IMG/VR virus record: IMGVR_UViG_3300021255_000114
Coordinates: 231,942 to 295,941 of that record
DNA: 64,000 bases
Direction: 5' to 3' (one strand)
Origin: a virus
Taxonomy: Duplodnaviria > Heunggongvirae > Uroviricota > Caudoviricetes
Shown: piece after piece, positions 20,374 to 46,313 of the stretch
Numbering within the stretch: position 1 is the stretch's first letter
Layout: every line of letters starts with the position of its first letter
Notes under the pieces: model-generated
Database searches by the model: none
Seen by the model: the letters and a program-made list of their open reading frames with translations, nothing else
What the model was told of the DNA's origin: nothing
Made by a program: the position numbers and the translations under genes

Positions 20374-20387
20374 TTATGTTAAATTAA

Positions 20388-20568
20388 CTCAATTATTTTC
20401 GTCTATTTCATAAGGCAAATTTTCCCAGTATTTTTTCATGGATTCCGATATTTTCTTTTTGGTCTCTTCATCCATTTTCTTGCCATAACGATGATTTTTT
20501 GCACCAAGTTTGGCTTGACGCATTTTTTCCTTTGTTTCCTCGCTTAATTTCCTTTGGGTTCTTGCCAT
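20388..20568 (-). CDS. small NUMOD3-like DNA-binding protein (59 aa)
   Basis: Unlisted ORF MARTQRKLSEETKEKMRQAKLGAKNHRYGKKMDEETKKKISESMKK; LS.ETK.K...AK.G repeats of this kind occur in homing-endonuclease DNA-binding modules. Confidence 0.35.
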
Positions 20569-20610
20569 TGTACTTTATTGAACTTTATTTAACTATAAAT
20601 ATGTAGTAAA

Positions 20611-30773: not shown

Positions 30774-31487
30774 TTATAGTGTGAAAAGCCTTTCGGTTGC
30801 CAATTTTGTTTTGTGAGGGTTCTGTGCGGTCTTGACATCCATCTGCCATATGCATTTGAAATCATCGGGCATTTCGTATTCGGAAACAAATATTGTGTGC
30901 CCCTCTTGCTTCTTCTCCCTACACCACTGATAGAACCTCCCATAATCGAAATTCTTGCTCGTCACATACTGCTTTGTGTTCTTATATGGCGGGTCGCAGT
31001 AGATAATGGACTCCTTTGGTATCAGTAATTCATCGTAGTTTTCTGCATAGAACTCGGTTCCGCGCAGGAATGGCACCTGAGCCAACGTGTTTTTGATATT
31101 CTCTCCGATATAGTCTCTCCCCTTGACATCGTGTCCCGAATAGCCGCCGTCGAAAAACCTTCCATTGAAAGAACCCATGAATCCGACCCATCCTATAATG
31201 TAGTCAGGGTATCGTCCGTCTTTTTTGTTGTAACTGTCTCTGACGTCGTTGTAGAAATTACGCATGATGAGTCTTGGGACATCCGGGTCGTCGTGACACA
31301 ACTCTTTCCACATGGCAATGAGGTATCTGTTATTGTCGCTTGCCATTCTGTACCCTTTGACGTGTTCGAGAACGCTGCAACTGCCGCAGAATGGCTCAAC
31401 CCAATACTGTTGAGCGTCTTTTCTTTCCGCGAGCATTATTGGAAGGATATACTTTACGTATCTTCGCTTGTTTCCCTGATATTTCAT
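30774..31487 (-). CDS. dam: DNA N6-adenine methyltransferase (Dam/D12 class)
   Basis: WVEPFCGSCSV reads as the FxGxG AdoMet-binding loop, and IIYCDPPY supplies the DPPY motif. Confidence 0.8.
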   Translation of the reverse strand: MKYQGNKRRYVKYILPIMLAERKDAQQYWVEPFCGSCSVLEHVKGYRMASDNNRYLIAMWKELCHDDPDVPRLIMRNFYNDVRDSYNKKDGRYPDYIIGWVGFMGSFNGRFFDGGYSGHDVKGRDYIGENIKNTLAQVPFLRGTEFYAENYDELLIPKESIIYCDPPYKNTKQYVTSKNFDYGRFYQWCREKKQEGHTIFVSEYEMPDDFKCIWQMDVKTAQNPHKTKLATERLFTL

Positions 31488-31515
31488 CTTTTGTCAGCCT
31501 TTATTTTGATAATTT

Positions 31516-31535
31516 TTTCAACACCACAAAGATAA
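31516..31535 (-). promoter_or_regulatory. conserved phage promoter copy
   Basis: ttcaacaccacaaagataac. Confidence 0.5.
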
Positions 31536-31541
31536 CAAAAA

Positions 31542-31562
31542 GGGCGGATACTTAGTCCGCCC
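31542..31562 (-). terminator. intrinsic terminator (GGGCGGA...TCCGCCC followed by T5)
   Basis: Hairpin plus T-run downstream of the SPFH gene. Confidence 0.55.
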
Positions 31563-31585
31563 AGTTTCTTAAACTTTGTTAAAAG

Positions 31586-32410
31586 TTATTTGCCAAGATT
31601 GATGAATGGGACACTATTACCCATCATATACTGTGGAAGTTTACCATCCCACTGCGTAACTGCTTGCCATTCAACAAGTTTCTGATTCTGTGCAAGGGCA
31701 TTCGCCTTGATACGCATGGCCTCTGCTTCAGCCTCGGCAGCAATCCTGGTTTGCTTGGCCTTCTCCTCAACCTGAATGGTAACATTTTTGGCTTTGAGTG
31801 CTTGCTGCTCAGCAACCTGTTTATCCTTGATGGCCTTCTCGAAATCATCGTCGAAATCGATATCCGTCAGTTGGAACTGAATGTTCATGAAATAGTTGCT
31901 GTCAAGGGTGTTTCGAAGCATCTTCTCAATCTCACGACGGACATCGTCACGATTCTCGACGATTTCTGTTGCAGCGAAATTACCGAAAGCTTCTTTCATG
32001 GCTGAACGGATAAACGGAACCACAATACGGTTGTGATAGTCCTCGCCAACATTGCGCATAAGACCACTGACATTCTCGCGAACAAGGTCATAGTTGATGG
32101 TGTAGTCAACTGTGGAAGTCTGCACGTCACGTGTGTAACTGTTCTCCTGACCGTCGAACTTCTTCTGCTGAATGTTTACCTTCTTCACGCTCTGGATGAA
32201 GGGCCACTTGAAATGAAGACCGTCGCCGACAACCTCACTGTTCATTTTACCGAAGGTGGAAATGACACCGCGCTCGGTCGATTTAATTGTGTACGTGGAG
32301 CCGAAGATAAGAATCAGCGCGACAAGGCCGATAACGCTCCACTTGATAACTTTTGGCATAAAATTCTCGTTGTTGTTCATTTTTATTTTATTTGTTTTAA
32401 CGTTTAACAA
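31586..32410 (-). CDS. SPFH/band-7 (prohibitin/HflC-like) membrane protein
   Basis: An N-terminal transmembrane segment is followed by ERGVISTFGK..., and the C-terminus is an Ala/Glu-rich coiled coil (QQALKAKN...AEAEAEAMRIKA). Confidence 0.7.
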   Translation of the reverse strand: MLNVKTNKIKMNNNENFMPKVIKWSVIGLVALILIFGSTYTIKSTERGVISTFGKMNSEVVGDGLHFKWPFIQSVKKVNIQQKKFDGQENSYTRDVQTSTVDYTINYDLVRENVSGLMRNVGEDYHNRIVVPFIRSAMKEAFGNFAATEIVENRDDVRREIEKMLRNTLDSNYFMNIQFQLTDIDFDDDFEKAIKDKQVAEQQALKAKNVTIQVEEKAKQTRIAAEAEAEAMRIKANALAQNQKLVEWQAVTQWDGKLPQYMMGNSVPFINLGK

Positions 32411-33005
32411 TCTTTAAAATACCGTTTTTGGTCTTAATGAAGTAGATACCTGAGTTGAAACCGGTTAAATCAACAAATTTTGCGTTTAAACCACTAATAA
32501 TCGGGCGACCGCATTCATCATAAACATAGAATTCGTCAATTGGTTTACTGAAACGAACAATACCCGTGGTAGGATTAGGATAGGCCTTGATATTCTCCAT
32601 ATGGGCCTCGGTTATAGAATTGGGCTCCATGAAATAAGCGGTAGCCATCACGCTGTCATATCCGCAATCGGTAACGTCGATAAGGTTGAAATCGGAATAG
32701 ACGGTGTCGCATACATTGGTGTCGGAATTAAACCACTCGTTAATCCAATAGGTAAAGAGCACCCCATCCGCAGGAACGGCGACAAGGAACCACTGATTGT
32801 CATTGTACACAGTATCGACATTGCTAATGGTGTCGACTGCATCACCCACAGTATCATATACAACAACGGTGTCGTAATGGACTACTGGATGTATGACATC
32901 GATACTACCCATGGTAGAGTCCATGACACACCAATTCACAATTGTCTGCGCGTTGGCAAACCCGGCCACAATCATAGCGGCCATCATAAACATAAACTTC
33001 TTCAT
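32397..33005 (-). CDS. secreted protein with a T9SS C-terminal sorting domain
   Basis: Signal peptide MKKFMFMMAAMIVAGFANAQ. C-terminus YPNPTTGIVRF...VYDECGRPI...DLTGFNSGIYFIKTKNGILKIVKR. Confidence 0.75.
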   Translation of the reverse strand: MKKFMFMMAAMIVAGFANAQTIVNWCVMDSTMGSIDVIHPVVHYDTVVVYDTVGDAVDTISNVDTVYNDNQWFLVAVPADGVLFTYWINEWFNSDTNVCDTVYSDFNLIDVTDCGYDSVMATAYFMEPNSITEAHMENIKAYPNPTTGIVRFSKPIDEFYVYDECGRPIISGLNAKFVDLTGFNSGIYFIKTKNGILKIVKR

Positions 33006-34054: not shown

Positions 34055-34489
34055 TTATTGAAAGAACGTAACCTTACCGCCAACCTGCTCAATCATGGCA
34101 ATTGCATCTTTCAGTGCCCCTTCCTTCGCTATTTTTTGACGGATGCGTTTCTGCTCCTCCTCTTCAACTTCTTTGTCAATCCGTCTCTTCTCACGTGCTA
34201 TACGGTCGTTGTGTTCAGTTTCACTTTCACGTTCCTTCCATTGAAGCGAAATCTCAAGGTAAGCTTCCGAATAATCACCCTCAGTGTCACCTGAAATCGA
34301 AATAAGAACCGGACTATGTTCGATTTTATTTTCCTCAAGTTCCTTTTCCTTTGCAAGTGCTTTGAGGTAGAATTCTTTTATTTCATCGGGTTCGAATGAT
34401 TCGTAATGGTTTGAACCTGAGTAAATGCTTTCTTCTTTCCATTTATTGATCTGGTAACTTTCGTCTATTTCTTTGCCTTTATAAATCAT
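34055..34489 (-). CDS. Glu/Arg-rich protein, paralog of 45879..46313
   Basis: Both copies start MIYKGK(E/K)I and carry an REKRRIDKEVEEEE-like stretch. Confidence 0.55.
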   Translation of the reverse strand: MIYKGKEIDESYQINKWKEESIYSGSNHYESFEPDEIKEFYLKALAKEKELEENKIEHSPVLISISGDTEGDYSEAYLEISLQWKERESETEHNDRIAREKRRIDKEVEEEEQKRIRQKIAKEGALKDAIAMIEQVGGKVTFFQ

Positions 34490-34510
34490 AATTCAATTTG
34501 TTTTATTTGT

Positions 34511-34530
34511 TTCAACAAGGCAAAGATACT
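34511..34530 (-). promoter_or_regulatory. conserved phage promoter copy
   Basis: ttcaacaaggcaaagatact. Confidence 0.55.
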
Positions 34531-34534
34531 AAAA

Positions 34535-34561
34535 AGAACCCAACGGAGAAACCACCAGGTT
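34535..34561 (-). terminator. intrinsic terminator (GAACC...GGTTC followed by a T-run) downstream of cas3
   Basis: Hairpin plus T5 on the minus strand. Confidence 0.45.
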
Positions 34562-34582
34562 CTTAAAAATTGTTAAAGGCTT

Positions 34583-36862
34583 TTATTTTTTCATTAATCC
34601 GTGTTCGGGGTCATAGGCATAAAGGCATGTTATAAAGGGTGTTTCGCTTGACAAAGCAAGTCTCCAGTACATATCAAACAATTTCGACCATCTTGGTCCC
34701 TGTTTGTTTTTTCTGTACCCTCTCGCAGATTTGTGACGGTATTTTTCTTGAAGTTCCGGGTGTTTATCTATATAATCATACATATACCGTGTTTCTCCAT
34801 CCCTAAACAGATTCTCGTCCAAATAATTGGCTATGATTGGTTCCTTCATCCTATCAGCAATTATGAAACGTTGGTTGTTTGGGTTTCCTCTTAAAGTTTG
34901 CCTTTGACTTATCCGCTTAATGTTATCGTCGCCCTTTGATGAATACAGGTATACCATATTGTGCAGGACCTTCTGTGATTCTTTTTTGCATTCATCGCTG
35001 TATTTTTCATATTCTTTTTTATAGGACGAATCATTGTATATCGCTTCGAACAAGGCAACTATTTCCGATTCATTATATACTTTTTCAAACACAACATTCT
35101 CCATGAACAACCGACGTCCAAGTAAACACAAACCGTGGTTGTATTTAGCGCGAACAGCCGCATACTCCGAGTTGTCAAAACCGAGCTTTTTGTTCGTGTC
35201 AAACGGGAGTATGTATATGTTGGCCACTTTTTCTCCACCCCAACGGTTAACACGCCCCAAACCCTGTTGGAATTCGTGCATCGGAAGATAGGCATCAGTA
35301 TAGAAATTATTCGCTGATATATCATGGCCGGTGGTTACCAGGTTTGTACAAACCATCACACCTTCTTCATTCCTGTTTTTTGAGAAATGGCGATACATAT
35401 CGGTAATATGCTTATTCATATCATGAGTGGTGTAATTGCTATGGCATAGCACGGTATTATTTTTGGTGTTTTTGGCTTTAACACCGTCATAGAGTTTTTG
35501 GGACGTTTTTACACCGTTAACCATTGCGATGGAATTATTCTCCATAGACAAATCAAACGTCTCGAGTTGATGGAAGATATAACGTTTATCCTGCGCACCT
35601 TTATAATGCCTCGGCTCAGTGTATACATGCCTTTTAAATGATTTATACAAGAGCGATTGCGGTGTTGCGCTGCAAAGTATTGTTTTTGCATTATAGTTTA
35701 ACCTTGACAAATTCATTAATTGGAATGCGCGATTACACCCGCTTCTATCCATATATGTATGATATTCGTCAAAAGCAACCGTACGGACCATAACCTCGAA
35801 GGCCATTTCCTTCATGTCATTGTCCCTTATAAAGGGATTGAAGAAATTATCTATGTTTGTGACGATTATATCGTTGTTAACATTATCCTTCAATCCTTGA
35901 ACCCAACCTCCTCCTTTTTTATAATATAAACCTAGTGTTATCTTAATATTATACACTTTTAAAAGATTGGCCAATGAACCATAAAGCGCATCACAAAGGT
36001 TGTCTGTGGGGCAGACGAACATCGCCTTTTTACCTATGGCAAGTACACTACGAAGCAGGATGTCGGTTTTCCCGAATCCGGTATTCTCGTTTATTTCGAA
36101 TATGTGAAAATTGGAATTGGCAATTTTTCCCACATATTCGCTTTGAATATTGAAACGGTATGAATCATATCCGTCGGGCTTTTGTATGTCGGAAACACCA
36201 AAAGTAACAGGCAGTTTCAAACCATTGTCCATAAATGTATCGTCAATGATGTAATCCCGGTCCGATTTTGCAATTAAAGCAAACAGCGTTTGATACGGCA
36301 CATCCTTTATATCACTTTTCGCAACATCATCCTGAAACAGATACAAGCATTCGTCTGAAAAGGTGGTGTCAGTTTCTGAGATATTATTTACCTCCAACTG
36401 GAAATCGGGATTCTTCCTATTGTTGATTTCAACCAATTCATGTATAACAGGCAATATTGCAGATTCCTCGGTCTTTATTTTTTTAAGTGCCGAATCAATC
36501 TTGAACGACAACCCGCAATAAGGATGATGTCCCAACAACACTCGCATGACCGTGGAATACATCAACCTGACTGAATTCATCTGCGCATAATCACAATTGG
36601 CCTTTGGTTTTATGTAAAGCCAAAATATCAAGGCACTTGAAACATTGTGCAGCACCTCAGGTGTTTCATCGTTTTTCAAATAAGCCTGAAACTCGTTCAT
36701 TATCTTTCCAAGGTCATGGAACAATCCTACCGTATATGCACATTTACGCCACGTTTCATTGGTAATATATTTTCCCGCAAGGAATTTGCAGTTGTCAGCA
36801 ACCGTTGTGGAATGCTCCATAAACGATATAACCGGCTTTGTTTTTGCTATCAGTTCTTTCAT
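34583..36862 (-). CDS. cas3: Cas3 HD nuclease-helicase
   Basis: HD-domain residues MEHS...LFHDLGK...GHH. Helicase Walker A NTGFGKTD. DExH box AFDEYHTY. Motif VI QQGLGRVNR. Confidence 0.85.
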   Translation of the reverse strand: MKELIAKTKPVISFMEHSTTVADNCKFLAGKYITNETWRKCAYTVGLFHDLGKIMNEFQAYLKNDETPEVLHNVSSALIFWLYIKPKANCDYAQMNSVRLMYSTVMRVLLGHHPYCGLSFKIDSALKKIKTEESAILPVIHELVEINNRKNPDFQLEVNNISETDTTFSDECLYLFQDDVAKSDIKDVPYQTLFALIAKSDRDYIIDDTFMDNGLKLPVTFGVSDIQKPDGYDSYRFNIQSEYVGKIANSNFHIFEINENTGFGKTDILLRSVLAIGKKAMFVCPTDNLCDALYGSLANLLKVYNIKITLGLYYKKGGGWVQGLKDNVNNDIIVTNIDNFFNPFIRDNDMKEMAFEVMVRTVAFDEYHTYMDRSGCNRAFQLMNLSRLNYNAKTILCSATPQSLLYKSFKRHVYTEPRHYKGAQDKRYIFHQLETFDLSMENNSIAMVNGVKTSQKLYDGVKAKNTKNNTVLCHSNYTTHDMNKHITDMYRHFSKNRNEEGVMVCTNLVTTGHDISANNFYTDAYLPMHEFQQGLGRVNRWGGEKVANIYILPFDTNKKLGFDNSEYAAVRAKYNHGLCLLGRRLFMENVVFEKVYNESEIVALFEAIYNDSSYKKEYEKYSDECKKESQKVLHNMVYLYSSKGDDNIKRISQRQTLRGNPNNQRFIIADRMKEPIIANYLDENLFRDGETRYMYDYIDKHPELQEKYRHKSARGYRKNKQGPRWSKLFDMYWRLALSSETPFITCLYAYDPEHGLMKK

Positions 36863-36901
36863 GGTGTAAATATACTATTTTGAATTGAAATATTGCTTGA
36901 A

Positions 36902-37660
36902 ATTTTTAATCAAATAAAATTATATTATTAAAGAGTAGTTGTTATCACTATGTAAAATGGTACGTAATTGTTAATCAATTGGAAATTATATTATTAAATA
37001 GTTGTATGCCCTACAAAGCATTGATTCCATAAAATTGTTAATTGAATAAAGATTGTATTATTAAAGAGTTGACTTGATAGCAATGATGACATCCCATAGA
37101 TTGTTAATCAATTAAAAATCATATTATTAAAGAGTCTCGTGTTGCTTCGTTCACTGCCTGGTCCCATTGTTAATCAAATAGAAATTATATTATTAAACAG
37201 TAGGCTGTGGTAGTTATGCCAATGGCAGTATATTGTTAATCAATTAAAAATCGTATTATTAAACAGTAATAACGGTGAACTTGTGGAAGCTGTAGAATTG
37301 TTAATCAATTAAAAATCGTATTATTAAACAGTCGGTGGGAAGATTTGGGGCGCGTTTCAAAATTGTTAATCAATTAAAAATCGTATTATTAAACAGTGTT
37401 AACGGTATAAGCGTTATATCATACGCATTGTTAATCAATTAAAAATCGTATTATTAAACAGTTCGCTTAATGAACAAATTCAATAAACTAAAATTGTTAA
37501 TCAATTAAAAATCGTATTATTAAACAGTGGTGCGCTTACCCTATGCAACTCCCTTCTTATTGTTAATCAATTAAAAATCGTATTATTAAACAGTTGTTAA
37601 CGGCATTTCCGTGATTAGTTACGCATTGTTAATCAATTAAAAATCGTATTATTAAACAGT
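36902..37660 (-). CRISPR. CRISPR array with 12 repeats of 36 bp (plus strand ATTGTTAATCAATTAAAAATCGTATTATTAAACAGT) and 11 spacers of 29-31 bp
   Basis: Seven perfect repeats (37232-37660) sit at the cas6-proximal end. Five progressively degenerate repeats (36902-37201) sit at the cas3-proximal end. A 62-bp AT-rich leader lies at 37661-37722. Read on the minus strand the repeat starts ACTGTTTAAT, which resembles type I-B repeats. Confidence 0.9.
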
Positions 37661-37722
37661 ACACTCCTTATAAAGCATTGTATTTATGTGCCTTACAAAG
37701 AGTTTTATATTTAAAAAATGCA

Positions 37723-38439
37723 TTAAACACCACCAAATGTGAATTTTTGAGTCATATTTTTCCTTTCTAATACTTCAATAGCGCCGAAACCGCTTCCGGT
37801 TGACCCCCCGATTCCAAGACTATAAAGAAGTTTTCTTGTCTTTGGCTTGCCATAAACCGTGGCAACAAACGATGTGCAAGGATTGAATACATCACCAACG
37901 AATATGTTTTTAACTTTAATATTCTCCGGTTTATTGAATTCAATTCTGAAAGTTTCATCAAGAATACCATTATTGGATAATTTCCTTTTGCAATGCTCAG
38001 TAAGCACTGTCTCCCATCCTTCATCACGGTATGTTATTTTCCTTCCGTCTTTTATAAGCAATACCGGTGACAAAGTCTTAATCACGTCATACGTTTTTCC
38101 CACCTTGCTATCGTCCTCGCACACTATATGTGTAACTCTTCTCCCGAATAAAACCTTGTTTTTACTATTGATGCTTTTGATAACCCCAGCAACAATTCGG
38201 TTGGTGATATCGTCCGAAGCACTTGAAACTTGGATATAAGGATTCATAACGGGTACAAGGCATTTCTTATCATTGGATGCTACAAGGCCCTGCAACCCTG
38301 AAATGGAATACGGGCTGAAACTCGAATGGATTCCTTCATCCCTATCAAACAGGTGGTTGTAGATGAAACCGTTTACTTCACGCTGATTCTTGAACGGGAT
38401 GCTATCCCCATCCTTTTCGAATATAATTTTAACTATCAT
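37723..38439 (-). CDS. cas6: Cas6 crRNA endoribonuclease
   Basis: 238 aa with the C-terminal glycine-rich loop GIGGSTGSGFG (GhGx5GhG), located directly next to the array leader. Confidence 0.8.
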   Translation of the reverse strand: MIVKIIFEKDGDSIPFKNQREVNGFIYNHLFDRDEGIHSSFSPYSISGLQGLVASNDKKCLVPVMNPYIQVSSASDDITNRIVAGVIKSINSKNKVLFGRRVTHIVCEDDSKVGKTYDVIKTLSPVLLIKDGRKITYRDEGWETVLTEHCKRKLSNNGILDETFRIEFNKPENIKVKNIFVGDVFNPCTSFVATVYGKPKTRKLLYSLGIGGSTGSGFGAIEVLERKNMTQKFTFGGV

Positions 38440-39529
38440 GTTTTATTGTTTCGTTTAGTTTGTCAAACACTTCGTTGTTGAACGTAGGAACGTCGGTGCA
38501 TACATAACGCATACTGCAATACCCATAACTCTCAATCTGATCTTCACTTAGTAAATCATATGGTAGCAGCACATCATCCACACCATATTCAGACCATTTA
38601 AGCACATCAACAATTCCACCCTCAAGGAACCTTGCGGTTTGCATGCCGGTAATAAATTGTTCCACATATTCCTCGTTTAGTTTGAATACGAATTCCCCGT
38701 TAAGGATTATGACTTTCTGTGGATAACCCTTCTCCGTCTTGATAAACGGGCCCGTGAGTTCAGAGCGGTAAGTTGTTCCGTTGACGAAATTCAATAGATT
38801 GGCATTTTTCAGATATTCCATCACCTTGACAGCGTTTACCTGCATCGCAGCCGAAATTGCAAACGTAAGCGTGGCATATTCTCTCGCATTCCGGCCGGTT
38901 ATTTCTGATATAAGCGAAACCAAACCATCCATTGCACCCTGTTTCTTTGAATTGCAACGAAGGTATCGCATATCAAACTGCTCCCAACAAACAGTGTCTA
39001 TGGAATTATTTGAAATCGTGCTATCATTGTTTGTTGCATGGTAATTCGCGAAATGCCCGTAAGACCACTTAACAACTTCGGTGTTCGGTCGTTTCAAACC
39101 GGTTTTACATGTGTGGAAATACGGGGCATACAATCCAACAAACCCATCAAGAACCATTTCGTCGATATCGGCATTTCTTTTGGCACCCTCCGGACCGTGA
39201 AACGTTGATACCGGTTTTTTCTGTAGCATTACGGCATACATATTGGATGCGGTATGAAGGGTGAAGGGATACAAAATATTCCCCTCCACCTTGTCCACAT
39301 CCTTCATATCATACCACAAAATTGAATCAGGTGAACATTTATCACGCATACCCTTCTCACCTGTGTATTTGTTATATACAATATCAAATTTATATGATTT
39401 AGGTTTAGATGATTTCTTTGGTTTATCTTCCGTTACCACATTGTTTTCATCCGATTCACGCTTCCTTATCTTATCATAATAAGGCAATTTGGCATTCTCA
39501 AACCTTAGTCTTACCCAATAATCATTCAT
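38429..39529 (-). CDS. putative Cascade subunit (Cas5/Cas7-family candidate)
   Basis: 366-aa gene in the cas operon, overlapping its neighbours by 4 and 11 nt. No diagnostic motif was recognised. Confidence 0.45.
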   Translation of the reverse strand: MNDYWVRLRFENAKLPYYDKIRKRESDENNVVTEDKPKKSSKPKSYKFDIVYNKYTGEKGMRDKCSPDSILWYDMKDVDKVEGNILYPFTLHTASNMYAVMLQKKPVSTFHGPEGAKRNADIDEMVLDGFVGLYAPYFHTCKTGLKRPNTEVVKWSYGHFANYHATNNDSTISNNSIDTVCWEQFDMRYLRCNSKKQGAMDGLVSLISEITGRNAREYATLTFAISAAMQVNAVKVMEYLKNANLLNFVNGTTYRSELTGPFIKTEKGYPQKVIILNGEFVFKLNEEYVEQFITGMQTARFLEGGIVDVLKWSEYGVDDVLLPYDLLSEDQIESYGYCSMRYVCTDVPTFNNEVFDKLNETIKHDS

Positions 39530-40536
39530 TTTTCCTTTTTATTGTTCTTAGCCTTTTTATTGGCTGTGTCGGAACATGCGTTGTTGTAAGGCGCGTAATC
39601 CTCAAGCGAAGCCTCGTTATAGAATTTCTTGTATTCAAAATTGATGCTCTCCACATCTTTCAATGTAATGTTCTCGAGCACATCCTTCGTGTTATCCTCG
39701 TAATGAATGATCAAGTCCATGCCAAGGAAATCAATCGACCCATTGCTATGACGTTCACCATTAAACATAATGAACTGCGACAGAATATATCTGACCTGTT
39801 GGTTAATCATATCGTCAGTCAGCATGAATGCCATATCGACTTCTTTGTTGCCGGTATGATTGCCAATCCTGTAATACGGTTTAATACAAGTCTTATCAAT
39901 CGAAGTGTTGAAATTCTTCGATAAACAAGTGAAATAATAGTCCATATCATTATCGTTCTTGAATTCAACAGCCATTTTTTGATGGCCGCCGTCAACGTAG
40001 ACAATCTGCATATCCGGGATGGAGAACATGAACCTGCCTTCATAGGTATATTCGCCAACATTCTCCACCGCATAGAGCGTGTTGTCTTTACCGGCGCCAT
40101 CGGTCTTTTTAATACCACTCATGGTTTTGGTTTCAAATGGAACGTGTTTAATGGGTTCCATATTGGCAACCAAAGGAAAGAGTTCATATCCTCCCTTTCG
40201 ATGACCCTCGTATGCAGAATCACCGTCTTGCTTAGTATAGAGGTAGCCCTTTGCAAGAATATAGGGGTCAGCCAAATGGCTTAAATACATTTCTCTGAAT
40301 TTCGTGCACTGATTGAATGTGCAACTCCCAAAAACAGCCTGATTGATTGCCTCGGCGCTGATCTTGTATTTGAAACCATCACCAACAAGCATTTTCTTAC
40401 AGTAGACTACGTTTTTATTAATGTTTTTTGTCCACTTGTAAACGTTTGCAGTATCACCGGCAAACTCGCCATCACAATTGAAAGCTCCACTGCCACTAAA
40501 TTTTACGCGGCCCTCAAGTTTAATTATTTTTTTCAT
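39526..40536 (-). CDS. putative Cascade backbone subunit (Cas7-like candidate)
   Basis: 336 aa with an ATGA overlap to the downstream gene, so likely translationally coupled. Confidence 0.45.
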   Translation of the reverse strand: MKKIIKLEGRVKFSGSGAFNCDGEFAGDTANVYKWTKNINKNVVYCKKMLVGDGFKYKISAEAINQAVFGSCTFNQCTKFREMYLSHLADPYILAKGYLYTKQDGDSAYEGHRKGGYELFPLVANMEPIKHVPFETKTMSGIKKTDGAGKDNTLYAVENVGEYTYEGRFMFSIPDMQIVYVDGGHQKMAVEFKNDNDMDYYFTCLSKNFNTSIDKTCIKPYYRIGNHTGNKEVDMAFMLTDDMINQQVRYILSQFIMFNGERHSNGSIDFLGMDLIIHYEDNTKDVLENITLKDVESINFEYKKFYNEASLEDYAPYNNACSDTANKKAKNNKKEK

Positions 40537-40555
40537 TTTTTATTTTTATTTACAT

Positions 40556-40948
40556 TTAATTCAATTGTTCGTACAGTTTCTTGTACATCTTATCCGGATC
40601 ATCCAACCATTCGTCGGCAATAATCTTTATCTTCTTGGTGATACCCAATTCGAGACTGCCTTTGAATGGTATATCATTCTCATCCAACAACAACCATTCG
40701 AAACAATTACTCACATAGGAATCAAATATGATATATTGAACCAAAACATATGGGATGCCAAATGAAATGCATTTCTTCTCGATGAGTTGCCTGTCAAACG
40801 AAACATCGTAGATATCAATACAGACTCCGGCAAAAACATCCCAAGAAAGACTCAATCTATGCAAATAACGTTCAACGAACTCCACAAGCATGTCATTAAC
40901 GGAAGGTCCCTCCCATCCTAAAAGTAAACTGTAATCCGTCTTTTTCAT
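40556..40948 (-). CDS. hypothetical protein in the cas operon (candidate small subunit)
   Basis: 130-aa ORF. Confidence 0.4.
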   Translation of the reverse strand: MKKTDYSLLLGWEGPSVNDMLVEFVERYLHRLSLSWDVFAGVCIDIYDVSFDRQLIEKKCISFGIPYVLVQYIIFDSYVSNCFEWLLLDENDIPFKGSLELGITKKIKIIADEWLDDPDKMYKKLYEQLN

Positions 40949-40975
40949 TTTTTTTTACAATTTAAAATTCCCTAT

Positions 40976-41401
40976 TCAATATTTGCATCTTTTAATCAAT
41001 ATTTTCTCTTCGTCGGTCGCATAACGATATGTATAGCCAGATTCATGCGTCAAGACCTCTGGTTCGCATTGAATAAAACCGCATCCACTGTTAATCATTA
41101 AGCATTTAGGCTTGAAATCCATTTCTCCTTTATAATCATCGGGCATGATAAAGAGTGCTGGAAAAACATCATCGTTTTCAAACGAATAAACAACATCACC
41201 CGGTTTAAAACCACATGGAGTATTAAAAACCTTCGCTTCAAAAACAGGAACAATTTTTCCATTCCCCTTTGGTTCAAACTGCTCAATATAAGGAATAATC
41301 TCCTTGGATGCGCTTTCACGTTTGGGATATTCAATCTTCGGGTCGTTAATGTATGCACAAACAATTTCGTGCAGAAGATTCCATTTTTCTCTTTCGTCCA
41401 T
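40976..41401 (-). CDS. hypothetical protein in the cas operon (candidate small subunit, Cas11-like position)
   Basis: Start reassigned to the internal Met so that TAA-C-ATG abuts the stop of the upstream gene. Confidence 0.4.
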   Translation of the reverse strand: MDEREKWNLLHEIVCAYINDPKIEYPKRESASKEIIPYIEQFEPKGNGKIVPVFEAKVFNTPCGFKPGDVVYSFENDDVFPALFIMPDDYKGEMDFKPKCLMINSGCGFIQCEPEVLTHESGYTYRYATDEEKILIKRCKY

Positions 41402-41402
41402 G

Positions 41403-42578
41403 TTATTCCTTTTTGTCATTAAAAAAACAACCGCCGCAATTCCGCAATTCGTGCTCGAAACAGGCACAATCAAATGTGGTGGTGTGTGCAAGAATAATCT
41501 TCATCTTTCCATCAACGTTGAATATGTAAGTATCAAAACAGCCGGAACCACTCATCATCGGACTGTCACCGGTATGTTGAACAAAACAACGGAATTCATC
41601 ACCATCACTTTTCCAATAATCAAGATAGATTTTCGGAGAACTCTCGATGGCATCTTCAAGTTCAATAGTATCTTTGATATGTTCAGGAGCCTCATTCCAC
41701 ACGTCATCGATGTCCTTGGTAGAACGCGCGATGTACTCCATATCACCCTTTGCAATGGCACACACCTTGGATGCAATATCACAAAACTGTTCTCTATAGT
41801 TGTTTTCCGTTATTACATCATCACTGGTAACTTCCCACTTGATGGGACACAAATCAACGGTGATTTCGTTAGTGTTGTTTGGCTTATTGCGAGTATCGAC
41901 TCTTATAATGAAATGGTTGGTAACCAGTGTGAAACTGCCTTCCTCTACAACCTCTGCACCGTTAACTTCCTTAATGTGTGCATTCATCAGGTCTGAATAC
42001 CCATCCCACAGTTCGTTGTCGAGGTCTTCAGGAGTAATCTTAATACCGTATCTTTCAAGGATTGCAGAAGCTTTTTTGAAATTATATCTGCTAACAAGAT
42101 AGTCAGCAAGCCTGTCCATGATTTCAAGCATAGGCATATTGAGAACTCCCTTGGCCTTTTCGGTGAGTTGTTCCACACTCATACTTCTGTTAAACACATG
42201 AGACATTATTGAATGCATCTTGACATTGTACTGCGGCGGCATAACATTGTAGTTGGGCAGCTCCTTGATGTAGTCACCAATACAGGTCATTGGGATATAG
42301 ACTGCGTAGGCAATCAAAATAGACCAAATTTCAGCAGTGATTGGATCATCATCCCAAGCGACCTTAGACCCACGTTCCTTTTTCACCTCAGGCGTTGCAT
42401 CGAGCCAGGCGTTGAATTGCTCGCGCATAAAGTTCAAAATGGACTTGGGAGAATAGAAGTCCCGATTCGGACAATCAAGATTGCAGACAACTTCCATATC
42501 ATGGATGAGGTTGCCTGAATGACGGTAGAAATTCTTTGCGTAGAGAATCTGATGGTTGTTTTTGATTTGATTTGGCAT
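41403..42578 (-). CDS. first gene of the cas operon (candidate large subunit, Cas8-like) with a C-terminal Cys cluster
   Basis: 391 aa; the C-terminal cluster reads CFDTY...DCACFEHELRNCGGCF. The conserved promoter lies 28 nt upstream. Confidence 0.45.
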   Translation of the reverse strand: MPNQIKNNHQILYAKNFYRHSGNLIHDMEVVCNLDCPNRDFYSPKSILNFMREQFNAWLDATPEVKKERGSKVAWDDDPITAEIWSILIAYAVYIPMTCIGDYIKELPNYNVMPPQYNVKMHSIMSHVFNRSMSVEQLTEKAKGVLNMPMLEIMDRLADYLVSRYNFKKASAILERYGIKITPEDLDNELWDGYSDLMNAHIKEVNGAEVVEEGSFTLVTNHFIIRVDTRNKPNNTNEITVDLCPIKWEVTSDDVITENNYREQFCDIASKVCAIAKGDMEYIARSTKDIDDVWNEAPEHIKDTIELEDAIESSPKIYLDYWKSDGDEFRCFVQHTGDSPMMSGSGCFDTYIFNVDGKMKIILAHTTTFDCACFEHELRNCGGCFFNDKKE

Positions 42579-42595
42579 ATTATTATGATTTTCAT

Positions 42596-42615
42596 TTCAA
42601 CAGCCCAAAGATACC
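42596..42615 (-). promoter_or_regulatory. conserved phage promoter copy driving the cas operon
   Basis: ttcaacagcccaaagatacc. Confidence 0.55.
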
Positions 42616-42664
42616 GAAAAAATCCTGCACACGGTAAAACTTTTTTCTTAAAAAAATTTAATTC

Positions 42665-43075
42665 TTAATACATTCCTTCAGGTGCTTCAAGAGCCAAACC
42701 CTTTTTAATCAATCCACGGTAGTCGAAATAATGTGCGTTAAGCCAATCATAAGTTTTAATAGTATATGTATACTCATACCCTATTGGTGTACCGTAGTCG
42801 TCCCACTGTACTACTATTTTATCCTTTGTTTTATAATATTCCCTCTTTTCTTCCTCAGTCATACTTGACATTGAACGGAGATAGGGTTTAATATCTTCAA
42901 CGGTATACACTTTTGTATTCTCAATGTAGCCATTTTTATCAATGTCTTCTAAAGTTTCAACAATAGACATTTCTTGGTCCCACTCATAGTTCCAAGCATC
43001 TCTTACGAATTTTACCCCATACGGCAACCTTGAACACAAGTCTTTAAGCAATAGTTCTCTTTCTTCTTTTGTCAT
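42665..43075 (-). CDS. member of the six-copy small-protein family
   Basis: LLLKDLCSRLPYGVK...YLRSMSSMTEEEK...YFDYRGLIKKGLALEAPEGMY. Confidence 0.6.
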   Translation of the reverse strand: MTKEERELLLKDLCSRLPYGVKFVRDAWNYEWDQEMSIVETLEDIDKNGYIENTKVYTVEDIKPYLRSMSSMTEEEKREYYKTKDKIVVQWDDYGTPIGYEYTYTIKTYDWLNAHYFDYRGLIKKGLALEAPEGMY

Positions 43076-43302: not shown

Positions 43303-43641
43303 TTATTTATACATATCCTCGGGCGCTTTGATAGCAAGGTTCATTGGGATAAGACCCCTATAGTCAAAGTGATGCGAGTTGAGCCAATCAAATGTATCAA
43401 TATTCCAGCCATCCAACCCCCATTTTTCAAAAAATTCTTCGTGTTCTTCCTCAGTCATAGAAGACATTGGACGGAGATATGGTAAATACGGTTCTAAACC
43501 ACTTTCTATATTAGCCACAATAATTGCATACCATAGAGCATCTAAAATTATATAGCCTTCAACACCTCCATCTATTCTGGTATTGTATGGTACTCTTGCA
43601 CAAAGGTCTTTTAACAGCAATTCTTTTTCTTCTAGTGTCAT
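43303..43641 (-). CDS. member of the six-copy small-protein family
   Basis: LLLKDLCARVPYN...YLRPMSSMTEEEHEEF...HFDYRGLI. Confidence 0.6.
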   Translation of the reverse strand: MTLEEKELLLKDLCARVPYNTRIDGGVEGYIILDALWYAIIVANIESGLEPYLPYLRPMSSMTEEEHEEFFEKWGLDGWNIDTFDWLNSHHFDYRGLIPMNLAIKAPEDMYK

Positions 43642-44205: not shown

Positions 44206-44637
44206 TTAAATGTTATACATACCTTCAGGTGCCTCTAGTGCAAGGCCCATTTCAATCAAACCACGATAGTCGAAATGGTTTTTCAGCAAAAAGTTTTGAA
44301 GAACTATAAAATCATCGAAGTCATATGTTGAATGTTTTTCATCATCATATAAACATTGCTTTACTTCAATGCCTCGATGAGAATATTTGTCATTATCATC
44401 GGATGGATAGCCAAACCACAATGTGTTTCTCAACTCATTTTTCTCTTCCTCAGTCATACTTGACATCGGACGGAGATAGGGTTTGGTGTTTTCCAAATCA
44501 TCTATATTGGGATGGCAGTCGAGGTCGCATTTGACAGGGGTGTTTCTGTTTCTGTGTTTAACCATTACGCCATAAGGCAACCTTGCACAAAGATCTACCA
44601 ATAAAATCTGTTTATCTTCTTGTGTCATATTAATCAA
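44206..44637 (-). CDS. member of the six-copy small-protein family
   Basis: ILLVDLCARLPYGV...YLRPMSSMTEEEKNEL...HFDYRGLIEMGLALEAPEGMY. Confidence 0.6.
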   Translation of the reverse strand: MINMTQEDKQILLVDLCARLPYGVMVKHRNRNTPVKCDLDCHPNIDDLENTKPYLRPMSSMTEEEKNELRNTLWFGYPSDDNDKYSHRGIEVKQCLYDDEKHSTYDFDDFIVLQNFLLKNHFDYRGLIEMGLALEAPEGMYNI

Positions 44638-45878: not shown

Positions 45879-46313
45879 TTAAACCACCCTATATCCAGCC
45901 TGGCGGAGTGTTTCAATGGAACGTTCAATCTCCCTCTGTTTAGCCAATTTCTTGGCTTCTTCATTACGTTTTTCACACTCAATGTCCTCGTCAATTGATT
46001 TTTTCTTTCGCTCAATCCTCTTCTCCCTCTCTTCATCGGTTTCCATCTCCTGCCACTGAAGATAAATGTTCATGTAAGGCTCGTCATCGGCACCATTTGG
46101 GTTATAATGGAATCCGTCACCCGTAATGCCAATGGTGAGATTCTTGAAATCAACCCCCTTGGATTTCAATTCCTCGGTCTTCTTGATGATGAGTTCTTTC
46201 CATCCCTCAATATCCTCAAGGGTGAAATCCTGACTATTGTCATACAGGCTTGCCAATGACTGGCTCTTGCCGACATATTCACGGTCTTTAATTTTTTTTC
46301 CTTTGTAAATCAT
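45879..46313 (-). CDS. Glu/Arg-rich protein, paralog of 34055..34489
   Basis: MIYKGKKI...EREKRIERKKK. Confidence 0.55.
   Translation of the reverse strand: MIYKGKKIKDREYVGKSQSLASLYDNSQDFTLEDIEGWKELIIKKTEELKSKGVDFKNLTIGITGDGFHYNPNGADDEPYMNIYLQWQEMETDEEREKRIERKKKSIDEDIECEKRNEEAKKLAKQREIERSIETLRQAGYRVV

What the first reader, a model, noticed from the sequence alone, without database searches (positions are those of the whole stretch)
34583..42615. Compact CRISPR-Cas locus of type I architecture without an adaptation module, carried by a phage-like element
The locus is one minus-strand unit with a dedicated copy of the phage promoter at 42596-42615. It runs through six ORFs (391, 142, 130, 336, 366 and 238 aa) into a 12-repeat CRISPR array and then a Cas3 HD-helicase.

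The ends are well supported. Cas3 has HD residues HDLGK, Walker A GFGKTD, a DEYH box and motif VI QxxGRxxR. Cas6 has a GhGx5GhG glycine-rich loop and lies immediately next to the array leader.

The five middle genes carry no recognisable Cas5, Cas7, Cas8 or Cas11 motifs, although their sizes and tight coupling fit a Cascade. They may therefore represent a divergent or undescribed subtype.

No cas1, cas2 or cas4 occurs anywhere in the 64 kb. Placing the array between cas6 and cas3 is also unusual.

The surrounding sequence looks like phage early or accessory DNA, with small genes on one strand and repeated phage promoters. This is therefore a candidate phage-encoded interference-only CRISPR system, perhaps aimed at competing mobile elements or host functions.
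Basis: partly seen in the sequence, partly recalled or inferred. Interest (0 to 1): 0.92.

Follow-up and report, generated by a model that had tools for sequence, protein, structure and literature searches.

The report
Minimal jumbo-phage CRISPR targeting rival phages
A 373-kb phage of gut or rumen Bacteroidales carries a stripped-down, apparently functional CRISPR-Cas weapon (four Cas proteins, no spacer-acquisition genes found), and at least two of its spacers are aimed at the portal gene of smaller rival phages or prophages; it is a new variant of a known kind rather than a new kind of system.

Summary
One minus-strand unit (42614-34534) runs from a phage promoter motif through six ORFs, a 12-repeat array and a Cas3 HD-helicase to a terminator hairpin.

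Only two of the five "unknown" genes are conserved partners. The 336-aa protein is a divergent Cas7fv, the backbone subunit of subtype I-F2/I-Fv. The 366-aa protein belongs to a conserved family that sits in the Cas5fv position, but it shows no detectable similarity to Cas5fv. The 391-, 141- and 130-aa ORFs are missing from most relatives, so they are not core subunits.

The system is an I-F2-like Cascade without Cas8 or Cas11. It differs from I-F2 in having a non-Cas6f Cas6, a Cas3 without the Cas2 fusion, 36-nt repeats, and no Cas1/2/4 in the 81 kb seen.

About 87 related protein clusters exist, many on viral contigs of 120-360 kb.

The cas genes are under strong purifying selection (dN/dS 0.05-0.12), and close relatives carry entirely different spacers.

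Spacers 1 and 4 encode the same peptide, VNGISVISY, through nine synonymous differences. That peptide matches a conserved site in HK97-type phage portal genes of Bacteroidales. A relative's spacer hits the neighbouring capsid gene.

Verdict: new variant of a known kind, moderately interesting.

The parts
42606..42614 (-). Promoter-like motif GTATCTTTG, which contains the Bacteroidota -7 box TAnnTTTG. It lies inside a 31-nt repeat (42595-42625) whose second copy is at 34510-34540.
   Evidence: 14 copies in the window against 0.68 expected, 13 on the minus strand. Repeat family D5. Promoter function is inferred.
41403..42578 (-). 391-aa ORF of unknown function. First gene of the unit and probably not a Cascade subunit.
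   Evidence: No Pfam, PADLOC, NCBIfam or PHROG hit. Present in L005 (87% identity, dN/dS 0.17) but absent from L004 and all distant loci.
40976..41401 (-). 141-aa ORF of unknown function, specific to this phage.
   Evidence: No family hit. No homologue in L004, L005 or the distant loci.
40556..40948 (-). 130-aa ORF kept upstream of cas7 in the three close relatives but present as very divergent alleles. Possibly an accessory or regulatory protein; its role is unknown.
   Evidence: 57-58% identical in L004 and L005. In L005 the adjacent Cas7 is 97% identical, yet dS is 1.7 here against 0.2 for cas7. dN/dS is 0.21. Absent from the distant loci.
39526..40536 (-). cas7, a divergent member of the Cas7fv (I-F2/I-Fv backbone) family, 336 aa.
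   Evidence: NCBIfam Cas7fv at E=1.6e-4. The exhaustive profile search found 87 full-length relatives, and all 76 that were aligned hit Cas7fv. The family profile hits PDB 5O6U_C and 9G44_F at 2.5e-42. An HMM of this protein plus its six nearest relatives hits annotated Cas7fv at 2e-18 to 6e-12. dN/dS is 0.07-0.08.
38429..39529 (-). 366-aa protein in the Cas5fv position. It overlaps cas7 by 4 nt and cas6 by 11 nt. Inferred to be the Cas5-like, PAM-sensing subunit.
   Evidence: It shares the cas7fv-cas5fv-cas6 gene order of canonical I-Fv loci. It is homologous to the 274-309-aa middle proteins of 9 distant phage loci (hhalign probability 91-94%, E 1.6e-8 to 9e-7). dN/dS is 0.09. No detectable similarity to Cas5fv, Pfam, NCBIfam, PADLOC or PDB entries.
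37723..38439 (-). cas6, the pre-crRNA endoribonuclease. It is of the general Cas6/Cas6b type, not Cas6f (Csy4).
   Evidence: PADLOC Cas6b at 4.8e-28, TIGR01877 at 7.7e-14, Pfam Cas_Cas6_C at 4.8e-12. G-rich loop at residue 209. No tblastn match to Cas6f. dN/dS is 0.05-0.12.
37661..37722 (-). 62-nt array leader.
   Evidence: Conserved in L005 and L004. Intact repeats lie at this end and degenerate repeats at the other.
36901..37660 (-). CRISPR array: 12 repeats of 36 nt and 11 spacers of 29-31 nt. Spacers 1 (37595-37624) and 4 (37398-37426) target a phage portal gene.
   Evidence: The repeat RNA is unstructured.
34583..36862 (-). cas3, a stand-alone HD nuclease and SF2 helicase of 759 aa. It is I-F-like but has no Cas2 domain.
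   Evidence: Canonical Cas2-3 aligns to the phage Cas3 proteins only from about residue 105 onwards. dN/dS is 0.08.
34534..34564 (-). Terminator-like hairpin (13-bp stem followed by a T-run) that closes the unit.
   Evidence: It is followed at once by the next promoter motif at 34521-34529.

Best explanation
This is a functional, interference-only, minimal type I CRISPR-Cas system carried by a roughly 373-kb jumbo phage of Bacteroidota.

Proposed mechanism. The unit is transcribed from a phage promoter as a single operon. Cas6 cuts the pre-crRNA within the unstructured 36-nt repeats. Each crRNA is bound by a Cas7fv-type backbone and capped by the 366-aa protein in the Cas5 position. There is no Cas8 or Cas11 subunit, as in subtype I-F2. 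The complex forms an R-loop on matching DNA and recruits the stand-alone Cas3 HD-helicase, which shreds the target.

Targets. At least part of the spacer repertoire is directed at morphogenesis genes (portal, and major capsid in a relative) of HK97-type temperate phages or prophages of the same Bacteroidales hosts. The system therefore serves the jumbo phage by destroying competing or resident phages, and with a prophage possibly the host chromosome around it.

Spacer gain. New spacers must come from machinery not encoded in the locus: adaptation proteins elsewhere in the genome or host, or recombination between arrays.

Shown here: the gene identities of Cas3, Cas6 and Cas7fv; conservation of the four-gene core; purifying selection; spacer turnover between relatives; and the coding-gene origin and portal match of spacers 1 and 4.

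Inferred: the Cas5 role of the 366-aa protein; complex assembly; DNA (not RNA) targeting and Cas3 recruitment; promoter and terminator function; and the biological benefit to the phage.
For: Gene identities:
- Cas3 has intact HD and helicase motifs.
- Cas6 is confirmed.
- The 336-aa protein is Cas7fv by stepwise HMM and by PDB 5O6U/9G44.

Conserved core:
- The gene order cas7fv, X, cas6 matches canonical I-Fv loci.
- The 366-aa protein is homologous to the syntenic protein of 9 distant loci, all arranged cas3-cas7-X-cas6-array.

Signs of function:
- dN/dS is 0.05-0.12 for all four core genes.
- Seven repeats are identical, and relatives 97% and 73% identical in Cas7 carry entirely different spacer sets.

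Phage context:
- The source contig is 373,160 bp and encodes NAMPT, NAD synthase, Rnl2, a PurZ-like enzyme and homing endonucleases, all on one strand.
- Relatives sit on IMG/VR contigs of up to 362 kb.
- No Cas1/2/4 was found in the 81 kb seen.

Targets:
- Spacers 1 and 4 both encode VNGISVISY(A) despite 9 nucleotide differences, all synonymous (P about 5e-6).
- That peptide sits at a conserved site of Phage_portal proteins (PF04860, 4.8e-83) in an IMG/VR contig and in a rumen Bacteroidales MAG.
- Spacer 4 of relative L004 matches the major capsid gene 1.7 kb away in the same module, at 8 of 9 residues.
Against: - The Cas5 identity of the 366-aa protein is not supported by any sequence test against Cas5fv (E 0.1-0.9).
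- Both AlphaFold models were unusable (pLDDT 31-33).
- No exact protospacer was found. The portal and capsid matches are homologues at 21-23 of 29 nt, so no PAM is known and the real targets are not identified. Eight of the window's 11 spacers have no match at all (spacer 6 only resembles the same portal site in peptide pattern).
- No virion gene was seen in the 81 kb examined, so phage identity rests on gene content and on relatives.
- Only 22% of the contig was examined for adaptation genes.
- No expression or activity data exist.
Confidence: 0.7

Rival explanations
1. One reading: all five genes between the promoter and cas6 are Cascade subunits. The 391-aa protein would be a Cas8-like large subunit, the 141- and 130-aa proteins Cas11-like small subunits, and the 336- and 366-aa proteins Cas7 and Cas5. 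The locus would then be a full five- or six-subunit Cascade of an undescribed subtype.
For: - The sizes fit, and the genes are tightly packed in one unit behind a single promoter motif.
- The 130-aa gene is kept upstream of cas7 in all three close relatives.
- An intermediate between I-F1 and I-F2 is mentioned in the 2025 classification (PMC12669027).
Against: - The 391-aa gene is absent from L004, whose cas7, cas5-position gene, cas6 and cas3 are nonetheless under strong purifying selection.
- The 141-aa gene is absent from both close relatives.
- None of the three occurs in 10 distant loci, where cas3 directly abuts cas7.
- None has a hit in any Cas profile library.
- In L004 the 130-aa homologue is separated from cas7 by two other small ORFs.
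Confidence: 0.1
2. The element is not a virus but a megaplasmid or another non-viral replicon, or the system acts for a carrier cell. In that case this would be an ordinary defence system protecting the cell from temperate phages.
For: - No capsid, portal or terminase gene was seen in the 81 kb examined.
- The spacers match temperate-phage structural genes, the classic signature of cellular defence.
- Canonical I-F2 systems are typically on plasmids and genomic islands (PMC12956352).
Against: - The gene content is typical of jumbo phages: NAMPT, NAD synthase, Rnl2, a PurZ-like enzyme, HNH homing endonucleases, multi-copy small paralogues, and about 120 mostly small genes on one strand with a repeated promoter.
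- Relatives of the locus are on IMG/VR viral contigs of 124-362 kb.
- There are no plasmid replication or conjugation genes among the Pfam hits.
- No cas1 or cas2 was found.
Confidence: 0.1
3. The locus is a decaying relic, or a Cas3-independent binder that silences genes instead of degrading DNA.
For: - No adaptation genes were found.
- The distal repeats are degenerate, and all repeats of L004's array differ from one another.
- In all three identified targets the crRNA is antisense to the mRNA.
Against: - dN/dS is 0.05-0.12 for all four core genes, including cas3.
- All Cas3 catalytic motifs are intact.
- Seven repeats are identical, and spacer content turns over between near-identical relatives.
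- Cas3 is retained in every locus of the family.
Confidence: 0.07

Closest known systems
Subtype I-F2 (formerly I-Fv) CRISPR-Cas, e.g. Shewanella putrefaciens CN-32 (PDB 5O6U, 5O7H, 9G44) and the plasmid loci of Legionella and Acinetobacter
   Same: - It has a Cas7fv-family backbone protein.
- The gene order is cas7, cas5-position gene, cas6.
- There are no Cas8 or Cas11 genes.
- The effector is a Cas3 most similar to the I-F type.
- It is carried on a mobile element.

The likely working mode is therefore the same: the Cas5-position subunit senses the PAM, and Cas3 docks directly on Cas5 and Cas7 (PMC12956352).
   Different: - Cas7 is only about 20% identical.
- The Cas5-position protein shows no detectable similarity to Cas5fv.
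- Cas6 is of the Cas6/Cas6b type, not Cas6f (Csy4).
- Cas3 has no N-terminal Cas2 domain (759 aa against about 990).
- There is no cas1f.
- Repeats are 36 nt with 30-nt spacers, against 27-28 nt with 32-nt spacers.
- In this lineage the array lies between cas6 and cas3.
- The host element is a Bacteroidota jumbo phage instead of a proteobacterial plasmid or island.
Vibrio phage ICP1 type I-F system (Seed et al. 2013; PMC10161043)
   Same: A phage-encoded I-F-related Cascade plus Cas3 that the phage uses against another mobile element in the same host.
   Different: ICP1 has Cas8f (Csy1), a Cas2/3 fusion and a full Cas1 adaptation module. It sits in a genome of about 125 kb and targets the PLE satellite instead of phage structural genes.
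Huge-phage CRISPR-Cas systems that lack adaptation modules (Al-Shayeb et al. 2020, PMC7162821; survey PMC12676247)
   Same: - The genome is larger than 200 kb.
- Cas1/2/4 are missing.
- The arrays are short.
- The spacers are directed at competing phages.
- Bacteroidota hosts are common for such phages.
   Different: The type I example described there is an I-C variant that lacks Cas6 and has a different helicase in place of Cas3. I found no description of a system based on Cas7fv-like proteins in the papers I could read.
Plasmid type IV-A3 systems that acquire spacers in trans (bioRxiv 10.1101/2023.06.23.546257)
   Same: A mobile-element-borne class 1 system without its own Cas1-Cas2 whose arrays still change, used in conflicts between mobile elements.
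   Different: Type IV uses the DinG helicase and silences targets without a nuclease. For IV-A3 a host array with a compatible repeat exists. Here no matching repeat was found in 185,579 species genomes.

Membership tests
Type I CRISPR-Cas | Cas3 with an HD nuclease and an SF2 helicase | tested here: met
   cas3_HD scores 49.3 bits, above its 43.45 cutoff. Cas3 core and Cas3fv profiles match. Motifs HDLGK, GFGKT, DEYH, SAT and QGLGRVNR are present.
Type I CRISPR-Cas | Cas7 backbone, Cas6 (or Cas5) processing enzyme, and an adjacent CRISPR array | tested here: met
   Cas7fv family. Cas6. A 12-repeat array lies 62 nt downstream of cas6.
Subtype I-F2 (I-Fv) | Cas7fv-family backbone protein | tested here: met
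   NCBIfam Cas7fv matches at 1.6e-4, well below its curated cutoff (21 against 200 bits). Homology is nevertheless established stepwise at 2e-18 to 6e-12, and through PDB 5O6U_C at 2.5e-42.
Subtype I-F2 (I-Fv) | Cas5fv with an alpha-helical PAM-sensing domain | tested here: inconclusive
   The gene position and size fit. Profile-profile comparison with Cas5fv gives E 0.1-0.9, with at most a C-terminal motif of about 30 residues aligned. The structure model was unusable.
Subtype I-F2 (I-Fv) | Absence of Cas8 (large) and Cas11 (small) subunits | tested here: met
   No Cas8 or Cas11 profile hit. The three extra upstream ORFs are not conserved in relatives. A lineage-specific accessory role for them is not excluded.
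Subtype I-F2 (I-Fv) | Cas6f (Csy4-type) endoribonuclease | tested here: not met
   The best matches are Cas6b and TIGR01877. No Cas6f profile appears among the 14 PADLOC hits, and there is no tblastn match to Legionella Cas6f.
Subtype I-F2 (I-Fv) | Cas2-Cas3 fusion protein | tested here: not met
   The HD domain starts at residue 16. Canonical Cas2-3 aligns to the phage Cas3 proteins only from about residue 105 onwards. The protein is 759 aa against about 990.
Subtype I-F2 (I-Fv) | Adjacent cas1f adaptation gene | tested here: not met
   There is no Cas1 in 120 window ORFs, in 17 kb of extra flank, or in any related phage locus. The remaining 292 kb of the contig was not seen.
Subtype I-F2 (I-Fv) | Repeats of 27-28 nt with 32-nt spacers (PMC12956352) | tested here: not met
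   Repeats are 36 nt and spacers 29-31 nt. The same format holds across the phage family.
Subtype I-F2 (I-Fv) | GG PAM read by Cas5 | not testable with these tools
   No exact protospacer was found. The flanks of the homologous sites are not conserved.
Phage-encoded interference-only CRISPR-Cas (huge-phage class) | Encoded on a phage genome | tested here: met
   The contig is 373 kb with jumbo-phage gene content. Relatives are on IMG/VR contigs of up to 362 kb. No virion gene was seen in the 81 kb examined.
Phage-encoded interference-only CRISPR-Cas (huge-phage class) | Spacers directed at competing mobile elements, not at the carrier's own predators | tested here: met
   Spacers 1 and 4 match the portal gene, and L004 spacer 4 the capsid gene, of an HK97-type (pro)phage module. 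These are matches to homologues, not exact protospacers.
Subtype I-B | Cas8b, with Cas7b and Cas5b | tested here: not met
   Only Cas6 resembles I-B profiles. No Cas8b, Cas7b or Cas5b hits were found.

The most novel reading that the evidence does not exclude
The locus represents an unclassified, phage-specific branch of type I systems. Its parts would be a Cas8/Cas11-less Cascade built from a Cas7fv-like backbone, a PAM-sensing subunit unrelated in sequence to Cas5fv, a non-Cas6f Cas6, and a Cas3 without the Cas2 domain.

At about 1,620-1,700 aa in total it would be the most compact Cas3-dependent system known. It would be widespread in Bacteroidota jumbo phages, used to destroy resident prophages or co-infecting temperate phages. 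It would renew its spacers without its own Cas1-Cas2, and with no host array of matching repeat.
Probability: 0.35. Interest if true: 0.75.

Novelty: new variant of a known kind. Interest (0 to 1): 0.58.

Why it matters
If confirmed, this family would matter in three ways.

1. It extends the minimal, Cas8-independent mode of type I interference, so far known only from proteobacterial I-F2 systems, to a diverse group of jumbo phages. It does so with a different Cas6, a different repeat format and a Cas3 freed of Cas2. At about 1,700 aa in total it is as small as or smaller than I-F2, which is already being developed as a compact genome-engineering tool (PMC11343773, PMC12714560).

2. It gives a concrete case of phage-against-phage warfare in gut or rumen Bacteroidales. 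Spacers are aimed at the most conserved structural genes of temperate phages, and the two portal spacers show the same site being hit in two deeply diverged alleles.

3. Near-identical phages carry completely different spacers yet have no visible Cas1-Cas2. That makes the open question of how adaptation-less mobile-element arrays are renewed directly approachable.

Tried and rejected
- Structure prediction. AlphaFold2 on the 336- and 366-aa proteins, with the only three sequences allowed, gave pLDDT 31 and 33. The models were unusable, so I ran no fold search.
- Direct searches. Direct PDB and Pfam/PADLOC/NCBIfam/PHROG searches of the 366-, 391-, 141- and 130-aa proteins found nothing.
- Cas7 trio against canonical Cas7fv. 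The direct hhalign lacked power (E=0.13, Neff 1.2). The stepwise HMM replaced it.
- Word-indexed homologue searches. These found only two relatives per protein. The search with the family alignment found nine.
- The search for related loci.
- Exact and near-exact spacer searches. There were no matches in INPHARED phages, PLSDB plasmids or IMG/VR, and no self-targets in the window or the loci.
- Degenerate portal pattern in JGI metagenomes. It returned only chance hits, because the serine code WSN also admits Cys and Trp.
- Degenerate capsid pattern in IMG/VR. No hits.
- Repeat pattern in 185,579 species genomes. No hits, so there is no evidence for a host array that could lend Cas1-Cas2.
- Rfam. 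Nothing reached gathering score in the window.
- Sigma-70 promoter scan. Uninformative, with 37 sites against 34 expected.
- Rejected readings. I rejected type IV (Cas3 is present, with no DinG or Csf proteins) and I-B (no Cas8b, Cas7b or Cas5b).
- Literature not held. Al-Shayeb et al. 2022 (Cell) and Faure et al. 2019 are the likeliest places for a prior description, but neither could be read.

Full report
**1.
- On the minus strand, ORFs of 391, 141 (171 from an upstream TTG), 130, 336, 366 and 238 aa run from 42578 down to 37723. Their junctions are tight: cas7 overlaps the 366-aa gene by 4 nt, and the 366-aa gene overlaps cas6 by 11 nt.
- After a 62-nt leader comes a CRISPR array at 36901-37660. 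It has 12 repeats of 36 nt (ACTGTTTAATAATACGATTTTTAATTGATTAACAAT) and 11 spacers of 29-31 nt. Seven repeats are identical, and the repeats become progressively degenerate towards cas3.
- Thirty-eight nucleotides further on starts a 759-aa Cas3 (34583-36862). It carries HDLGK, GFGKT, DEYH, SAT and QGLGRVNR. It matches cas3_HD, cas3_core and, best of all, PADLOC Cas3fv at 2.8e-34.
- The 238-aa protein is a Cas6 (Cas6b profile 4.8e-28, Pfam Cas_Cas6_C 4.8e-12) with a glycine-rich loop at residue 209.
- The motif GTATCTTTG contains the Bacteroidota -7 box TAnnTTTG; that consensus is from my own knowledge. It occurs 14 times against 0.68 expected, 13 times on the minus strand. One copy is 28 nt upstream of the 391-aa ORF. 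The next is just downstream of a 13-bp terminator-like hairpin that follows the cas3 stop. None lies between them.
- The locus therefore looks like one transcription unit, 42614-34534.

**2. The context is a jumbo phage.**
- The window is part of a 373,160-bp contig (ENA ERZ12302814 NODE_4; the window is 183,286-247,285).
- Virtually all genes lie on one strand. They include NAMPT, NAD synthase, an Rnl2-type RNA ligase, a PurZ-like adenylosuccinate synthetase, a radical SAM enzyme, HNH homing endonucleases, DUF932, a D12 methylase and multi-copy families of small paralogues.
- A protein with a T9SS sorting domain (Por_Secre_tail) and the promoter consensus point to a Bacteroidota host.
- I saw no virion gene in the 81 kb examined, so phage identity is strongly suggested but not proven.
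- Pfam finds no Cas1, Cas2 or Cas4 among 120 ORFs of the window. PADLOC lists only Cas3, Cas6 and a methyltransferase among its first 25 families. None appears in the annotation of about 8.7 kb beyond each end.

**3. What the middle genes are.**

*The 336-aa protein is Cas7fv.*
- On its own it matches NCBIfam Cas7fv only weakly (E=1.6e-4).
- A profile of this protein and its two close relatives retrieved 87 full-length relatives from 1.84 billion representative proteins.
- All 76 that I aligned hit Cas7fv, the best at 6e-37. Their profile hits the solved I-Fv/I-F2 backbone subunit (PDB 5O6U_C and 9G44_F) at 2.5e-42.
- A profile restricted to the window protein and its six nearest relatives finds NCBI-annotated Cas7fv of Acinetobacter and Legionella plasmids at 2e-18 to 6e-12, with no decoy hits.
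- It is therefore a divergent Cas7fv, about 20% identical to canonical ones.

*The 366-aa protein sits in the Cas5fv position.*
- Canonical I-Fv loci read cas1f, cas2/3 (about 990 aa), cas7fv (316), cas5fv (337), cas6f (184). The 366-aa protein occupies the Cas5fv slot.
- It is homologous to the 274-309-aa protein found between cas7 and cas6 in nine distant phage loci (hhalign probability 91-94%, E 1.6e-8 to 9e-7 over 244-272 columns).
- Neither it nor that family shows significant similarity to Cas5fv (E 0.1-0.9; at most a C-terminal motif of about 30 residues aligns), nor to anything in Pfam, NCBIfam, PADLOC or the PDB.
- Both AlphaFold models failed (pLDDT 31 and 33). Its Cas5 role is therefore inferred from position, size and family conservation.

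*The three upstream ORFs are not core components.*
- The 391-aa gene is present in L005 (87% identity) but absent from L004.
- The 141-aa gene is in neither relative.
- The 130-aa gene is in both, but as a very divergent allele. In L005 it is 57% identical with dS 1.7, where the adjacent cas7 is 97% identical with dS 0.2.
- None of the three occurs in any distant locus.

**4. The wider family.**
- I examined L006-L009 from metagenomic assemblies and 13 IMG/VR loci. The IMG/VR loci include contigs of 124, 149, 173, 311 and 362 kb.
- All share cas3 (737-780 aa), cas7fv-like (357-384), the middle protein (274-309), cas6, then an array.
- Most arrays have 36-nt repeats ending ...GGAATCACAAC, with spacers of about 30 nt. 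The window's repeat ends ...GATTAACAAT. One branch (L009, L030) has a 32-33-nt hairpin repeat ending GTTGAAAG and a shorter Cas6.
- Canonical Cas2-3 aligns to these Cas3 proteins only from about residue 105 onwards (E down to 2e-42). They are I-F-type Cas3 proteins without the Cas2 domain. There is no Cas1f-like or Cas6f-like sequence in any of the loci.
- In the window's lineage (window, L005, L004), cas3 has moved to the far side of the array.

**5. The system appears functional.**
- Between the window and L004 or L005, dN/dS is 0.07-0.08 for cas7, 0.09 for the 366-aa gene, 0.05-0.12 for cas6 and 0.08 for cas3.
- The catalytic motifs are intact.
- The leader is conserved among the three relatives.
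- The three relatives have completely different spacer sets, including L005, whose Cas7 is 97% identical.
- Spacer content therefore turns over quickly, although no adaptation genes are visible. No array with this repeat exists in 185,579 species-representative genomes. The source of new spacers is unexplained.

**6. Targets.**
- Exact or near-exact searches of the spacers found nothing in INPHARED, PLSDB or IMG/VR, and no self-targets.
- Spacers 1 and 4 differ at 9 of 29 positions. Read on the window's plus strand, both encode VNGISVISY(A). All nine differences are synonymous, including two serine codon-family switches. In a permutation test this pattern arose once in 200,000 trials.
- They therefore derive from the same conserved site of one protein-coding gene in two deeply diverged alleles. 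They share the crRNA-5' end exactly and differ in length only at the 3' end. That fits a PAM-anchored ruler and transcription of the minus strand.
- A back-translated degenerate pattern found this peptide at the same site (...NSYDG-VNGISVISYA...) of two homologous long ORFs. One is on a 23-kb IMG/VR contig (L013). The other is on a 408-kb scaffold of a rumen Bacteroidales MAG, RUG153 (L015).
- The L013 protein is a Phage_portal (PF04860, 4.8e-83). In L015 it heads a classic HK97-type module: portal, S78 prohead protease (9e-31), major capsid protein (PF05065, 1.6e-26), connectors, tail genes and tape measure.
- Independently, spacer 4 of relative L004 encodes TTEHDDVVA. That matches TTEHDDTVA in the L015 capsid gene, 1.7 kb from the portal site. 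From the size of the search space I estimate about 0.002 such matches by chance.
- Nucleotide identity to the spacers is only 21-23 of 29. These contigs are homologues of the true targets, and no PAM can be read from them.
- The other hits of the degenerate pattern (L014, L016-L018) are chance matches. None of the other spacers among the 79 pooled from ten arrays gave a match.

**7. Comparison with what is known.**
- Phage-borne CRISPR-Cas without Cas1/2/4 is well documented in huge phages (PMC7162821, PMC11656645). A 2025 survey lists I-C, I-F and II-C as the commonest phage-borne subtypes that target other phages, with 84% lacking adaptation genes (PMC12676247).
- Subtype I-F2 is defined by Cas6f2, Cas5f2, Cas7f2 and a Cas2-3 fusion, with 27-bp repeats, 32-bp spacers and no Cas8 or Cas11 (PMC12956352).
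- The present system meets the Cas7fv criterion and the criterion of no Cas8 or Cas11. It fails the Cas6f, Cas2-3 fusion, cas1f and repeat-format criteria. It is inconclusive for Cas5fv.
- I therefore do not file it as a member of I-F2. It is an I-F2-like variant that most probably works the same way.
- I found no description of this variant in the 2025 classification (PMC12669027), the terascale-clustering survey (PMC10910872) or the reviews I could read. The 2022 Cell survey of virus-encoded systems and Faure et al. 2019 could not be accessed. A Pfam family named 'Cas7fv-like' (PF28157) already exists. Prior recognition is therefore possible.

**8. Verdict.** This is a real, apparently functional, phage-borne, interference-only minimal type I system, and a new variant of a known kind. 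The five-gene Cascade and the claim of an 'undescribed subtype' are overstated. Interest is moderate, at 0.58.

Noticed in passing
window 37398-37426 and 37595-37624: Spacers 4 and 1 encode the identical peptide VNGISVISY(A) through nine synonymous differences, including two serine codon-family switches. The same portal site was captured from two deeply diverged phages. Spacer 6 (37268-37296) encodes NNGELVEAV, which has a similar xNGxxVxxx pattern and may be a third, more distant allele.
   Followed up: yes
window spacers 1 and 4; L004 spacer 4 (L004 6689-6718): In all three spacers with an identified target, the crRNA is antisense to the target mRNA. With only three cases this is not significant, and a DNA-targeting type I system would not be expected to show strand bias.
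   Followed up: no
window 40556-40948: The 130-aa gene upstream of cas7 is kept in all three close relatives. In L005 it is a swapped-in divergent allele: 57% identical with dS 1.7, next to a cas7 that is 97% identical with dS 0.2. This cassette-like behaviour would suit an anti-defence or regulatory gene.
   Followed up: partly
window 25915-27105: The 396-aa adenylosuccinate-synthetase homologue has its best PHROG match in phrog_1211 (labelled 2-aminooxy adenylosuccinate synthetase, which I read as PurZ-type; 5.7e-40). This raises the possibility that the phage replaces adenine with 2-aminoadenine in its DNA. I did not look for companion genes (MazZ, DatZ).
   Followed up: no
window 18176-22116: An NAD+ salvage cluster: NAD synthase (18176-19042) and NAMPT (20611-22116), separated by an HNH homing endonuclease (19039-20373). 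This is as described for gastrointestinal 'NAD-jumbo phages' (PMC11662467). In the distant locus L008, a NAMPT gene sits directly beside cas3.
   Followed up: partly
window 42665-43075, 43303-43641, 44206-44637, 8399-8803, 12532-12924, 12936-13292: A family of at least six paralogous proteins of about 112-143 aa (37-47% identical; phrog_10841, function unknown) is scattered through the window. The 144-aa ORF just downstream of cas3 (34055-34489) has its own paralogue at 45879-46313.
   Followed up: partly
window 52611-52761: A tandem repeat of a 21-nt unit, 7.3 copies, 74% matches. It lies inside or beside ORF 52393-52956.
   Followed up: no
window 30774-33005: A D12-class adenine methyltransferase (30774-31487), an SPFH/Band_7 protein (31586-32410) and a 202-aa protein with a T9SS C-terminal sorting domain (32397-33005). 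The last points to a Bacteroidota host. Thg1-like and GmrSD_N-domain proteins also occur in the window; I did not map them.
   Followed up: partly
L032 19489-20492 (contig 174,619-175,622, about 8 kb before the window start): An IS605 OrfB/TnpB gene (Pfam OrfB_IS605, Cas12f1-like_TNB) in the phage genome, next to two large ORFs (1081 and 491 aa) with no Pfam match.
   Followed up: no
L004 6455-7615: In the 73%-identical relative, every repeat of the array differs from the others (64-92% identity). An extra 166-aa ORF lies between the array and cas3. This may be an array in decay or one maintained in a different way.
   Followed up: no
L009 12627-12781 and L030 7569-8988: A sub-branch of the family uses a different, hairpin-forming repeat of 32-33 nt ending GTTGAAAG (-13.6 kcal/mol, z=-3) with a much shorter Cas6-position protein (163-172 aa). 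L030 has 22 repeats.
   Followed up: partly
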